DNA from: Candidatus Bathyarchaeia archaeon
Lineage (GTDB): Archaea > Thermoproteota > Bathyarchaeia > Bathyarchaeales > Bathycorpusculaceae
Assembly (NCBI GenBank): GCA_049516875.1
Contig: JBEKSS010000001.1
Span: 384,001 to 448,000 of the forward strand
Direction: 5' to 3'
DNA: 64,000 nucleotides
Part shown: in pieces, positions 4,973 to 26,982 of the stretch
Position numbering within the stretch: the first letter of the stretch is position 1
Layout of the letters: each line of letters begins with the position of its first letter
Made by a program: the position numbers and the translations under genes
Notes under the pieces: generated by a model
Told to the model about the DNA's origin: nothing
What the model saw: only the letters and a program-made list of their open reading frames with translations
Databases searched by the model: none

Positions 4973-5080
4973 AAGAAGAGCTTTCAACTGAGGATCTGAG
5001 AACCACCTGAAGTTGCTGAGAGCGTTGCGAAATCAAAAGAGTTTTTAGCGCTACACACGAGTAGAAAGAGGTGTTTAAAC

Positions 5081-5875
5081 TTGTCTTTCCGCGCCGGAAT
5101 GGCTCAGACCGCAAAGGAGAAAGAATCCAACATCGTCCTAGCCTTTGACTTTCCGTTCGAAAAACCCGAAAACCGCAAGAAACTCTTTTCCAAAGCAGAA
5201 CAGCTCTTGGAAGCGGTACATCCATACTTGTGCGCTGTGAAATTCAACCACCATCTGGTTCTTCCTCTAGGCACGTTTGACGGCGTTCAAAAGCTCGTAG
5301 GAAAGGCCCAGAACGAGGGATTGATGACCATTATGGACTGCAAGGTGAATGACATCGGCGCAACAAACCAAGCTATCGCAGAGTACTATTACGCGGCAGG
5401 ATTCGACGCGTTGATAGCCAATCCTTTCATAGGATGGGAAGAAGGGTTGAAACCGATTTTTGAAGTTGCAGGCAGACTGCATCGCGGTGTAATTCTACTC
5501 GTTTACATGAGCCATAAAGCAGCAGTAGAAGGATACGGACAAACAATCGTCGATGCTGAGACTGGAGGGAAAATGCTTCAGTACGTTTCGTTTGCAAGAA
5601 AGACTCTGAAATACGGTGCAGACGGCGCGGTTGTCGGCGCTACGTATCCCGAAAAAATAAGGGAAGTGCACGAGATACTCGGCGAAAAAATTCCGATATA
5701 TTCTCCGGGAATAGGAGCCCAAGGCGGAACAGCCCAAGCTGCCCTAATGGCTGGTGCAACTTACCTTATCGTCGGACGAGAGATAACGCTTGCCGAAAAC
5801 CCTGCTGAAGCAGCAAAGAAAGCTAGGGATATTGTAAGACCTGCCAAGTGGAGTTCTCCTAGACGTTCATCATAA
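5081..5875 (+). CDS. pyrF: Orotidine 5'-phosphate decarboxylase
   Basis: DCKVNDIGAT (DxKxxD), VVGAT, PGIGAQGG, LIVGR. Confidence 0.95.
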   Translation: MSFRAGMAQTAKEKESNIVLAFDFPFEKPENRKKLFSKAEQLLEAVHPYLCAVKFNHHLVLPLGTFDGVQKLVGKAQNEGLMTIMDCKVNDIGATNQAIAEYYYAAGFDALIANPFIGWEEGLKPIFEVAGRLHRGVILLVYMSHKAAVEGYGQTIVDAETGGKMLQYVSFARKTLKYGADGAVVGATYPEKIREVHEILGEKIPIYSPGIGAQGGTAQAALMAGATYLIVGREITLAENPAEAAKKARDIVRPAKWSSPRRSS

Positions 5876-26136: not shown

Positions 26137-26254
26137 TTCATGTCAACAACAGCTTTTGTCAATGAAAAAATCTGTTTTGAAGACTCAACGTAGCGTTGTT
26201 TCTTATTCTGCGTCTTATTTTCAAATGCAAATGTGTTAATAACTCAGTTCGTGA

Positions 26255-26982
26255 ATGTCTATTATGGTGCTTCAAGTGGAAGGAAGTGAGTGGGAGAAAC
26301 TCATTCAAAACCTGACGAGGGAAGGCATCCTGCGGTCTCCGAAGGTGATCGAAGCAATGCGCTCCGTTCCGAGGGGAAAATTCCTCCCAGAAAACATGCG
26401 TTCCTACAGCGCGACGGACACGCCGCTTCCGATTGGTTTCGGGCAGACGGCTTCGGCGCCACATAGCCTCGGCGCAGCTCCGAGACTAGGCGAAACATGG
26501 TTTCAATCATGAATGAAGCCCTGCAGTTGGAAGTAGGCCACAAAGTGTTCGAAGTCGGAGCGGGTTCAGGCTGGCACGCCGCCACGATAGCGGAGCTTGT
26601 TGCGCCTAGCGGCGCTCCAAGAAGCGAATACGGCCACGTCTACACAATGGAAATCGTTCAGGACTTGGCAGATTTTGCAAGAAAAAACATCATGAAAGCG
26701 GGGTACGGCGACCGCGTGACGATAATCAGCGGCGACGGCTCACTGGGTTACCCAGAAAAGGCCCCCTATGACAAGATATTAGTGACGGCTGCGGCCCCAG
26801 ATATTCCGAAACCGCTCATCGACCAGTTAAAATCGGGCGGCATCATGCTAATCCCAGTTGGGAACGCATCTCTGTTCCAAAACCTGATGAAAATCACTAA
26901 AACAGACGCAAAAATCAAGCAGGAAAACCTGGGGGGAGTGGCCTTCGTACCACTCGTAGGAAAACACGGCCACAGATTTTAG
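26255..26982 (+). CDS. pcm: Protein-L-isoaspartate O-methyltransferase; join 26255-26462 and 26495-26982
   Basis: VPRGKF...DTPLPIGFGQTASAPH / MVSIM...VFEVGAGSGWHAA...GDGSLGYPEKAPYDKILVTAA...FVPLVG; the halves are in different frames. Confidence 0.95.
26463..26494 (+). other. Candidate BHB-type pre-mRNA intron (32 nt)
   Basis: CGCC-ACA-TAGCCTCGG...CCGAGACTA-GGCG-AAA-C: 4-bp helix between two 3-nt bulges; cutting after the 2nd nt of each bulge gives CCA CAC ATG GTT. Confidence 0.85.

What the first reader, a model, noticed from the sequence alone, without database searches (positions are those of the whole stretch)
26455..26500. Candidate BHB-spliced pre-mRNA intron in pcm
Seen: pcm is broken at the conserved GQTxSAPH-MV motif by 32 extra nt that shift the frame. 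The junctions form CGCC(26457-26460)/GGCG(26489-26492), a 4-bp helix flanked by 3-nt bulges ACA (26461-26463) and AAA (26493-26495), on an intron hairpin TAG.CTCGG/CCGAG.CTA. Established: archaeal tRNA splicing endonuclease (EndA) cuts after the 2nd nt of each bulge, and the well-documented archaeal mRNA intron is in crenarchaeal cbf5. Applying that rule removes 26463-26494 and yields CCA CAC ATG GTT (P-H-M-V) in frame. Inference: EndA/RtcB-dependent mRNA splicing of a protein-repair gene, possibly a regulatory switch. Caveat: the exon-exon outer helix is weak (one clear G-C).
Basis: partly seen in the sequence, partly recalled or inferred. Interest (0 to 1): 0.92.

Follow-up and report, generated by a model that had tools for sequence, protein, structure and literature searches.

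The report
Spliced intron inside an archaeal repair gene
A protein-repair gene (pcm) of an uncultured Bathyarchaeia archaeon is interrupted by a 32-base insert with the shape that the tRNA-splicing enzyme cuts. The same insert is kept in well over a hundred related genomes, so it is very likely only the second known intron inside an archaeal protein-coding sequence.

Summary
The only pcm gene of this Bathyarchaeia genome is split at the His codon of SAPHMV by 32 nt (26463-26494). Pfam matches stop at profile position 59 and resume at 61.

The insert forms a 4-bp helix (26457-60 / 26489-92), a 3-nt bulge, a hairpin and a second 3-nt stretch. Cutting after the second base of each restores CCA CAC ATG.

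Comparison is the decisive evidence:
- 120 of 151 distinct pcm junctions carry an insert of 21-57 nt at exactly this site, across Bathyarchaeia and four families of other classes in the phylum.
- Every one is unreadable unless the insert is removed.
- RNAalifold independently predicts the same structure.
- All six hairpin pairs show compensatory changes.
- The wobble base of the exon Ala codon covaries with the intron: GCG/GGCG 103, GCA/GGTG 14, GCG/GGTG 3, mismatches 0.
- Insert-free relatives equal the predicted spliced product.

The genome encodes a crenarchaeal-type EndA (catalytic and structural subunits, with the specific loop) and RtcB.

Three points are not shown. No RNA data could be found. 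The outer exon-exon helix is absent, so the motif is relaxed. A regulatory role has no support.

Verdict: a real intron, a new member of the cbf5-type class, with confidence about 0.87.

The parts
26264..26462 (+). pcm exon 1 (the start may be the ATG at 26255 or at 26264). It ends with the first base (C) of the His codon.
   Evidence: ORF 26255..26512. Pfam PCMT profile 4-59, E 4e-13. Third-codon-position entropy is far above positions 1 and 2 in 118 insert-bearing relatives.
26456..26456 (+). G that can pair with C26496. This is the only invariant pair of the would-be outer helix h.
   Evidence: G14-C69 is a standard pair in 45 of 45 distinct rows, but both bases are fixed by the codons. The neighbouring pair 12-71 is never paired, and helix h is 57% paired overall.
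26457..26460 (+). 5' strand of the central 4-bp helix H (CGCC). It lies in exon 1, in the Ala and Pro codons.
   Evidence: Paired in 100% of cells in 99 distinct sequences. The Ala wobble base (26458) covaries with the intron: GC 91, AU 6, GU 2. Over 120 distinct junctions: GCG/GGCG 103, GCA/GGTG 14, GCG/GGTG 3, mismatches 0.
26461..26463 (+). 5' three-base bulge ACA. The predicted cut is after 26462.
   Evidence: Bulge letters in 120 junctions: ACA 106, TCT 7, ACT 5, TCA 2. The Pro codon is restricted to CCA or CCT when the insert is present.
26463..26494 (+). The 32-nt intron.
   Evidence: Removing it restores Pfam continuity. Same-site inserts of 21-57 nt occur in 120 of 151 distinct junctions. 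Insert-free alleles read CCN CAC/CAT ATG.
26464..26488 (+). Intron hairpin h'. Arms are 26464-26472 and 26480-26488, with one C.A mismatch (26467/26485). The loop is 26473-26479.
   Evidence: Fold. RNAalifold predicts the first six pairs. All 6 pairs show double changes and 94.6% of cells are paired. Within the genus the C.A mismatch becomes U-A (L201) or C-G (L212).
26489..26492 (+). 3' strand of helix H (GGCG), inside the intron.
26493..26495 (+). 3' three-base stretch AAA. The predicted cut is after 26494. It is closed on its 3' side by only one pair, so it is loop-like rather than a true bulge.
   Evidence: Letters in 120 junctions: AAA 75, AGA 18, ATA 13, ACA 11, TTA 2, TAA 1. The third base is always A.
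26495..26982 (+). pcm exon 2. It begins with the last two bases (AC) of the His codon, then ATG GTT..., and ends with the stop codon at 26980-26982.
   Evidence: ORF 26497..26982. Pfam PCMT profile 61-209, E 1.3e-43. Coding signature in 119 relatives.

Best explanation
The 32 nt at 26463-26494 are an archaeal endonuclease-type (bulge-helix-bulge-like) intron inside the coding sequence of pcm, which encodes protein-L-isoaspartate O-methyltransferase.

How it would work:
1. In the pre-mRNA, the exon bases CGCC (Ala and Pro codons) pair with the intron's GGCG to form the 4-bp central helix.
2. A 3-nt bulge (ACA) separates that helix from a covarying intron hairpin.
3. A second 3-nt stretch (AAA) follows the helix on the other strand.
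4. The heterotetrameric (alpha-beta)2 splicing endonuclease cuts after the second base of each 3-nt element.
5. RtcB joins the exons to give ...SAP-H-MV..., and probably circularises the intron.

The motif is relaxed: central helix, bulge and intron helix, with a loop-like 3' site and no outer helix. This is the kind of substrate that crenarchaeal-type enzymes with the Crenarchaea-specific loop accept.

The intron looks ancient and vertically inherited, with repeated precise losses. Splicing is obligatory to make the only PCM of the cell.

Shown here: the anatomy, the conservation, the covariation, the selection on both exons, and the presence of the enzymes.
Inferred: the cutting and joining themselves, the circular intron, and the loss history.
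For: 1. Gene continuity. Pfam PCMT matches run 4-59 and 61-209 on the two sides. There is no second pcm in the genome; the other PF01135 hits have E >= 4e-11 and are other methyltransferases.

2. Same site in relatives.
- Of 61 genomes of the order, 45 have an insert, 12 have none and 4 have no pcm match.
- A covariance model of the junction finds insert-bearing pcm in 34 of 151 sampled genomes of the class.
- It also finds it in 14 of 131 sampled genomes outside the class: families f45 8/8, f56 3/3, f60 2/2, f43 1/1.
- Of 80 metagenome contigs, 60 have the insert, 19 do not and 1 was unparsed.

3. Pooled junctions. 183 of 186 loci parsed into 151 distinct junctions, 120 with an insert of 21-57 nt. 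Length mod 3 is 20 / 56 / 44 for remainders 0 / 1 / 2. All 120 are broken if the insert is not removed; each of the 20 in-frame inserts holds a stop.

4. Structure.
- RNAalifold on 46 sequences predicts exactly helix H, a 3-nt bulge and hairpin h'.
- On 99 distinct sequences, 96.8% of cells are paired and 7 of 10 pairs show double changes.
- 0 of 500 shuffles reach the observed pairing or covariation score, and sliding the partner by 1-3 columns drops pairing to 19-44%.

5. Exon-intron covariation. Ala codon against the helix 3' strand: GCG/GGCG 103, GCA/GGTG 14, GCG/GGTG 3, mismatches 0. Insert-free genes use GCA 11, GCG 11, GCT 5, GCC 4. The Pro codon is CCA 111 or CCT 9 with the insert, against CCG 11, CCT 9, CCC 6, CCA 5 without it.

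6. Splice-site check. Insert-free alleles equal the in-silico spliced junction. All 100 in-silico spliced products tested were open over 50 + 148 codons. Third-position entropy is far above positions 1 and 2 in both exons.

7. Machinery in the same genome.
- EndA alpha (185 aa) has the Tyr/His/Lys catalytic residues and a KPK-containing loop. Its best solved relatives are 2cv8_A (E 1e-42) and 3p1z_B.
- EndA beta (183 aa) lacks the His.
- RtcB is intact.
- ARAGORN reports introns in 17 of 40 tRNAs.

8. Literature. The (alpha-beta)2 enzymes cleave relaxed motifs in non-tRNA contexts and splice cbf5 pre-mRNA (passages of PMC2738675; PMC12397907).

9. The insert is present in independent DNA assemblies.
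Against: - No RNA evidence of any kind could be obtained.
- The outer helix of a canonical BHB is missing. The tested pairs 11-14/69-72 are 57% paired, and the only invariant G-C is fixed by coding. The 3' cut site therefore does not lie in a true bulge.
- The single-sequence folding energy is unremarkable (z -0.26).
- One metagenome contig (L215) has a mismatch in helix H (GACG).
- Exon 2 begins with ATG just after a GGCGA/GGTGA stretch that resembles a ribosome-binding site, so separate translation of the C-terminal part is conceivable.
- cbf5, the one gene known to carry such an intron elsewhere, is uninterrupted here.
- My genome-wide scans found no second candidate. mRNA splicing is thus not otherwise documented in this organism.
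- Related genomes are not independent, so the shuffle statistics overstate significance.
Confidence: 0.87

Rival explanations
1. Split gene. The insert is not removed. The cell makes an N-terminal fragment of about 70-85 aa and a C-terminal fragment of 161 aa that starts at the ATG at 26497, and the two assemble into an active PCM. The conserved hairpin would serve translation or mRNA stability.
For: Exon 2 starts with ATG directly after the insert. GGCGA/GGTGA sits 3 nt upstream and resembles a Shine-Dalgarno core. Both parts are separate ORFs.
Against: - The ATG belongs to the conserved HMV motif and is also present in insert-free genes, so it says nothing.
- Most sequences have GGCG rather than GGTG. 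That base covaries with the Ala wobble base 30 nt upstream (0 mismatches in 120), which a ribosome-binding site would not require.
- The fixed geometry of 3 nt, 4 bp and 3 nt with a helix of variable sequence is what EndA needs, not what reinitiation needs.
- The His residue would be lost or changed. Nine sequences read CCT CTT or CCT CTC (Pro-Leu) if unspliced.
- The tail of the N-fragment varies freely in length and sequence.
Confidence: 0.05
2. Recoding during translation. Ribosomes would bypass the insert (hopping, as in phage T4 gene 60) or shift frame.
For: A stable hairpin lies right after the break, as at the T4 take-off site.
Against: - Insert lengths fall in all three classes mod 3 (20 / 56 / 44) and range from 21 to 57 nt, so no single frameshift fits.
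- There are no matched take-off and landing codons in the right frame. In the window, CAT at 26462-64 and CAT at 26496-98 would land one base off the ATG frame.
- Sequences with a TCT bulge have no His codon at take-off.
- Pairing of the exon CGCC with the intron is unexplained.
Confidence: 0.03
3. Dead gene or assembly artefact. The insert is a sequencing error, a small mobile insertion or a decaying pseudogene.
For: The gene is formally frameshifted, and an automatic annotation would call it broken.
Against: - The same insert occurs in contigs of independent runs and studies and in more than 100 genomes.
- Both exons keep a coding signature, and all 100 in-silico spliced products are open.
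- There is no second pcm copy.
Confidence: 0.01
4. A structured RNA element that EndA cuts but that is not rejoined. It would be a processing or decay site that lowers PCM expression, or a source of a small RNA.
For: EndA also processes non-intron substrates such as rRNA spacers and a 5' UTR in Haloferax (passages of PMC7714728).
Against: The cell would then have no intact PCM at all in most of these lineages, yet both exons are conserved as one protein. RtcB is present.
Confidence: 0.04

Closest known systems
cbf5 pre-mRNA intron of Crenarchaeota (Watanabe 2002; Yoshinari 2006; Yokobori 2009, PMC2738675)
   Same: - A short intron inside a protein-coding sequence, placed in a codon of a highly conserved active-site motif.
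- An unconventional or relaxed BHB, with cleavage between the 2nd and 3rd bulge bases.
- Dependence on the hetero-oligomeric (alpha-beta)2 endonuclease.
- A patchy distribution, with insert-free relatives implying loss.
(passages read)
   Different: The gene is different (pcm, not cbf5), and cbf5 is uninterrupted here. The lineage is different: Bathyarchaeia and unnamed sister classes rather than Desulfurococcales and Sulfolobales. Here splicing is inferred, whereas for cbf5 it was shown by cDNA and in vitro cleavage.
BHB intron in the 5' UTR of HVO_1309, Haloferax volcanii (Schwarz 2020, PMC7714728)
   Same: An mRNA substrate of the archaeal splicing endonuclease (passages read).
   Different: That intron lies in an untranslated leader, not in the reading frame. 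The host enzyme is of another type. It does not interrupt a protein.
Archaeal tRNA and rRNA BHB introns
   Same: The same geometry (4-bp helix between two 3-nt elements), the same enzymes, and the same expected products (ligated exons plus a circular intron).
   Different: The canonical motif has helices on both outer sides. Here the exon-exon helix is missing, and the host RNA is a messenger.
HAC1/XBP1 unconventional mRNA splicing in eukaryotes (IRE1 plus a tRNA ligase or RtcB); recalled, and mentioned in PMC13149111
   Same: Spliceosome-independent removal of a short frame-changing intron from an mRNA, with ligation by tRNA-splicing ligases.
   Different: The endonuclease is different (IRE1) and that splicing is stress-regulated. 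No sign of regulation is known here.

Membership tests
Archaeal endonuclease-type (BHB) intron | Central helix of exactly 4 bp between the two cleavage sites | tested here: met
   26457-60 pairs with 26489-92. 100% of cells are paired in 99 distinct sequences, with AU and GU replacements at one pair.
Archaeal endonuclease-type (BHB) intron | Three-base bulge at the 5' splice site, flanked by helices on both sides | tested here: met
   ACA at 26461-63 lies between helix H and hairpin h'. It is always 3 nt in 120 junctions.
Archaeal endonuclease-type (BHB) intron | Three-base bulge at the 3' splice site, closed by an outer helix (canonical hBHBh') | tested here: not met
   The 3 nt are always present, but the outer helix is one fixed G-C plus a U.G, and 57% of cells are paired. 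The motif is therefore the relaxed form (helix-bulge-helix with a loop-like 3' site), not the strict one.
Archaeal endonuclease-type (BHB) intron | Intron-side helix supported by covariation | tested here: met
   6 of 6 pairs show double changes, 94.6% of cells are paired, and 0 of 500 shuffles reach the observed score.
Archaeal endonuclease-type (BHB) intron | Cutting after the 2nd base of each 3-nt element gives a functional mature RNA | tested here: met
   It restores SAPHMV and Pfam continuity. It equals the insert-free alleles. 100 of 100 in-silico products are open.
Archaeal endonuclease-type (BHB) intron | The host has an endonuclease able to cut relaxed motifs ((alpha-beta)2 with the specific loop, or epsilon2) | tested here: met
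   There are two EndA paralogues. One has the Tyr/His/Lys residues and a KPK loop aligned to the loop of 2cv8_A and 3p1z_B; the other lacks the His. That those PDB entries are crenarchaeal enzymes is recalled. The role of the loop comes from passages of PMC12397907.
Archaeal endonuclease-type (BHB) intron | The host has the RNA ligase RtcB | tested here: met
   PF01139 match with E 4e-180, uninterrupted, at G000:C1:89224-90534.
Archaeal endonuclease-type (BHB) intron | Spliced RNA and excised (circular) intron observed | not testable with these tools
   No RNA run was listed. No cDNA-like insert-free copy with matching exons was found among 80 metagenome contigs.
cbf5-type archaeal pre-mRNA intron (intron within a CDS) | It lies inside the reading frame of a protein gene and must be removed for a full-length protein | tested here: met
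   (120 of 120 broken if unspliced).
cbf5-type archaeal pre-mRNA intron (intron within a CDS) | The host gene is cbf5 | tested here: not met
   The host gene is pcm. The TruB_N match of cbf5 in this genome has no stop or break. It is the same kind of intron in a different gene.

The most novel reading that the evidence does not exclude
The pcm intron would be an ancient messenger-RNA intron inherited since before the split of Bathyarchaeia from neighbouring classes of Thermoproteota. It would be kept because the cell uses EndA/RtcB splicing as a checkpoint. Splicing efficiency, for example under stress, starvation or RNA-ligase limitation, would set how much protein-repair enzyme is made. This would be an archaeal counterpart of HAC1/XBP1-type regulated unconventional splicing, and the relaxed 3' site would make the step tunable.
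Probability: 0.12. Interest if true: 0.93.

Novelty: new member of a known kind. Interest (0 to 1): 0.85.

Why it matters
In the passages I read, a 2020 paper (PMC7714728) counts cbf5 of some Crenarchaeota as the only other BHB intron reported in an archaeal mRNA. That paper itself adds one in a 5' UTR.

A second intron, in an unrelated gene, would show that endonuclease-type mRNA splicing is not a one-gene curiosity. This one is conserved over a large uncultured lineage, and selection on it is visible even on exon wobble bases.

It also has a practical side. Automatic annotation will call pcm a frameshifted pseudogene in most Bathyarchaeia genomes, which distorts metabolic reconstructions and completeness estimates.

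Finally, it offers a natural series of more than 100 sequence variants (21-57 nt) of a relaxed substrate. That series can be used to study what (alpha-beta)2 endonucleases recognise, and how introns are gained and precisely lost in archaea.

Tried and rejected
RNA evidence. The look-up of sequencing runs listed no RNA holder, so nothing can be said about expression. I then scanned metagenome contigs for insert-free copies whose exons match an insert-bearing genome, which could be cDNA. There were none: the 19 insert-free contigs of 80 are 77-83% relatives.

Outer helix. The exon-exon pairs 11-14/69-72 were tested and not supported.

Rfam. No family matches 26200-26800 at E <= 1.

Genome-wide search for further CDS introns in G000.
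- A strict BHB plus ORF fusion gave 5176 hits against 5059-5363 in splice-offset controls.
- With coding-potential scores there was still no excess, and the strict hairpin rule missed pcm itself.
- A relaxed rule plus 'no start codon for exon 2' gave 5 hits against 1-3 in controls at the top threshold.
- Of the 10 best loci inspected, I identified one as a frameshifted SIS-domain gene and two as adjacent genes (a HicB/HicA pair, and a GNAT-like gene with its neighbour). The other seven have long inserts without a clear hairpin. None was checked with Pfam.
- A scan limited to inserts of 70 nt or less recovered pcm at rank 181 of 1976, again with no excess over controls.
- Conclusion: these scans cannot tell real introns from chance, so 'no other intron' is not shown.

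Naming the non-Bathyarchaeia classes. A search for mcrA in 5 of the 14 genomes found nothing. They remain unnamed.

Translational bypass, frameshifting, pseudogene and artefact were considered and rejected; see the rival explanations.

Literature. Eight searches were run. No paper in the held library combines 'bulge-helix-bulge' with 'isoaspartate'. The hits that combine 'isoaspart' or 'protein-L-isoaspartate' with 'splicing endonuclease', or with 'archaea' and 'intron', are by their titles and abstract openings on unrelated subjects; I did not open them. Subscription-only papers and supplementary files were not searchable. Supplementary tables, for example those of PMC7714728, could list further substrates that I could not see.

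Full report
WHAT IS THERE. The window lies in a 2.43-Mb, 20-contig genome (G000:C1:384001-448000). Its closest named relatives are MAGs labelled Candidatus Bathyarchaeia or Bathyarchaeota.

Between 26255 and 26982 two ORFs in different frames both match Pfam PCMT (PF01135). The first covers profile positions 4-59 and the second 61-209. Exactly one residue is missing between them, the His of the conserved SAPHMV motif.

The sequence reads ...TCG GCG CCA C|A TAG CCTCGG CGCAGCT CCGAG A CTA GGCG AA|A CAT GGT.... Removing 26463-26494 gives GCG CCA CAC ATG GTT. Shifting both cuts one base to the right gives the same product.

The minimum-free-energy fold of 26440-26515 contains the proposed elements: a 4-bp helix CGCC/GGCG, a 3-nt bulge, a 9-position hairpin with one C.A mismatch, and three unpaired bases after the helix. 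Its energy is not better than that of shuffles (z -0.26). A single sequence therefore proves nothing.

No other true pcm exists in the genome. No Rfam family matches the region.

IS THE INSERT REAL DNA? Yes. Contigs from four other public runs, of different studies, cross the insert without a gap. Three do so without any difference, and none skips it. Three metagenome contigs with 100% identical exon 2 carry the identical insert.

COMPARATIVE EVIDENCE: DISTRIBUTION. In 61 genomes of the same order, 57 have pcm. Of these, 45 carry an insert at exactly this place and 12 carry none. G019 has two copies and is counted once. G020, G032, G040 and G043 had no pcm-grade match.

A covariance model built from the 46 insert-bearing junctions finds one hit in the own genome. 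It finds full-length hits in 34 of 151 sampled genomes of the class, including families f20 (7/7) and f35 (6/11) from other orders. One of these hits, in G149, could not be parsed by my script.

The same model finds hits in 14 of 131 sampled genomes of other classes of the phylum: f45 8/8, f56 3/3, f60 2/2 and f43 1/1. Five of those 14 genomes were checked. All five have two EndA matches (the second match in G201 is below the Pfam cut-off) and no mcrA. I could not name those classes.

COMPARATIVE EVIDENCE: POOLED JUNCTIONS. Pooling all loci fetched up to, 183 of 186 were parsed. This gives 151 distinct junction strings, 120 with an insert of 21-57 nt and 31 without.

Insert lengths fall in all three classes mod 3: 20, 56 and 44. 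Every one of the 120 is unreadable unless the insert is removed, and all 20 in-frame inserts contain a stop.

Insert-free alleles read CCN CAC ATG or CCN CAT ATG, which is the predicted spliced product.

STRUCTURE AND COVARIATION. RNAalifold, given only the MAFFT alignment of 46 junctions, predicts the 4-bp helix (columns 15-18 with 62-65), a 3-nt bulge and six pairs of the hairpin, and nothing else.

On a 100-sequence model-guided alignment (99 distinct rows):
- 96.8% of cells are standard pairs.
- 7 of 10 pairs show changes on both sides.
- None of 500 shuffles reaches the observed pairing or covariation score.
- Sliding the 3' partners by 1-3 columns drops pairing to 19-44%.

The first hairpin pair is U-A 72, C-G 23, G-C 4. 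The second is A-U 69, G-C 22, G-U 7.

Related sequences inflate such statistics, and that alignment was fitted to the model. However, the counted pairs abut invariant flanks, and the unfitted alignment gives the same picture.

EXON-INTRON COVARIATION. The most telling observation involves the exon. The wobble base of the Ala codon (26458) pairs with the third base of the intron's GGCG. Among the 120 insert-bearing junctions the combinations are GCG/GGCG 103, GCA/GGTG 14 and GCG/GGTG 3. There is no mismatch.

The GCA/GGTG state occurs in several separate families. The 31 insert-free genes use GCA, GCG, GCT and GCC freely (11, 11, 5, 4).

Likewise the Pro codon, whose third base is the first bulge base, is only CCA or CCT when the insert is present, but any of the four codons when it is absent.

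Within the genus, the C.A mismatch of the window's hairpin is replaced by U-A in L201 and by C-G in L212.

One contig (L215) has a mismatch in the central helix.

BOTH EXONS ARE UNDER SELECTION. In insert-bearing genes the mean column entropy at codon positions 1, 2 and 3 is 0.78, 0.56 and 1.62 for exon 1, and 0.53, 0.35 and 1.45 for exon 2. Each exon was measured in its own frame. The values are much like those of insert-free genes.

All 100 in-silico spliced products that had enough flank were open over 198 codons. 21 loci were left out for short flanks and none for stops.

On a quick tree of these 130 proteins, insert presence needs at least 13 changes of state. Well-supported branches alone force only 2. 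Repeated precise loss is therefore likely but not firmly counted.

MACHINERY. The genome has two EndA paralogues.
- The first, 185 aa, keeps the catalytic Tyr, His and Lys. It also has an insertion (GIAKPKIPEFNVP) that aligns with the corresponding loop of its best solved relatives, 2cv8_A and 3p1z_B. From memory, these are the catalytic subunits of the Sulfolobus tokodaii and Aeropyrum pernix heterotetramers.
- The second, 183 aa, lacks the His.

This is the (alpha-beta)2 architecture. Passages of PMC12397907 and PMC2738675, and the abstract opening of PMC5829648 in the listing, state three things. This type, through its Crenarchaea-specific loop, cleaves relaxed motifs. It does so in non-tRNA contexts. 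It is the enzyme that splices cbf5 pre-mRNA.

RtcB is present and intact. ARAGORN reports introns in 17 of 40 tRNAs, though three with introns over 800 nt look spurious. cbf5 itself is not interrupted here.

WHAT DOES NOT FIT THE TEXTBOOK MOTIF. The outer exon-exon helix is absent. Of the four tested pairs, one is an invariant G-C and one an invariant U.G, both fixed by codons. One pair never forms, and one forms in 13 of 45 sequences.

The 3' cut site therefore lies in a 3-nt stretch that is closed on one side only. This is a relaxed (bulge-helix-loop-like) substrate, as reported for most cbf5 introns.

RIVALS.
- A split gene translated as two polypeptides is the only serious rival, because exon 2 begins with ATG after a purine-rich GGCGA. 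That ATG is part of the conserved motif even in insert-free genes, and the 'ribosome-binding' base covaries with an exon base 30 nt upstream. The strict 3-4-3 geometry also has no role in that model.
- Frameshifting and hopping fail on the length distribution and on the lack of in-frame matched codons.
- Pseudogene and artefact fail on conservation and on the independent assemblies.

WHAT IS MISSING. There is no RNA evidence. No RNA run was listed, and no cDNA-like contig was found. My attempts to find further CDS introns in this genome did not beat splice-offset controls, although pcm itself was recovered. Whether pcm is unique remains open. Nothing bears on a regulatory role.

COMPARISON AND NOVELTY. 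The kind is known: endonuclease-type introns in archaeal mRNAs. cbf5 of Desulfurococcales and Sulfolobales is the only case inside a coding sequence. One 5'-UTR case is known in Haloferax, and a 2020 paper still counts cbf5 as the only other example (passages of PMC7714728).

Eight full-text searches found no paper that links such an intron to pcm or reports one in a Bathyarchaeia protein-coding gene. Subscription journals and supplements were not searchable.

I therefore rate it a new member of a known kind. It has unusually strong comparative support, a wide and old distribution, and a practical consequence for annotation.

Noticed in passing
G000:C1:200170-200801 (minus strand; outside the window): A SIS-domain gene (phosphosugar isomerase-like) is broken into two frames. 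The 77 nt between the halves read as ordinary coding sequence in another frame (GRSGFVARAFALRLMNLGFNVYF, my own reading of the 77 nt printed). This points to a plain frameshift or sequencing error, not an intron.
   Followed up: partly
L215 (metagenome contig), junction of pcm: This is the only insert-bearing copy seen with a mismatch in the central helix (GACG instead of GGCG). It may be an assembly error or a decaying copy.
   Followed up: no
window 26481 and 26497 (loose ends of run X12): The same sample holds relatives with a different hairpin in the insert, and one insert-free allele (...GCGCCACAT followed by ATGG). Insert-bearing and insert-free lineages therefore coexist in one habitat.
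   Followed up: no
L178-L191 (genomes G201-G308, families f43, f45, f56, f60): The pcm insert also occurs in four families outside the class Bathyarchaeia. Their inserts are 23-34 nt, and family f45 uniformly has the GCA/GGTG state. The classes could not be named with the tools at hand.
   Followed up: partly
window 26489-26499: GGCGAAAC precedes the ATG of exon 2 (GGTGAAAC in some relatives). This resembles a ribosome-binding site, so unspliced mRNA might yield a C-terminal fragment.
   Followed up: partly
L014-L023, L079, L124, L145, L155, L167, L169, L170, L172, L192-L194: All 20 inserts whose length is a multiple of three contain an in-frame stop codon, so none can be read through as extra residues.
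   Followed up: yes
G000 whole genome: ARAGORN calls introns in 17 of 40 tRNA genes. Three of them are 831-1463 nt long and are probably false joins rather than real introns.
   Followed up: no
L176, L177, L192-L194 (family f35): These are very short versions of the insert (21-22 nt), with a 5-bp hairpin and a 4-nt loop. They are close to the minimum that could still form the motif, and so are useful as a natural minimal substrate.
   Followed up: partly
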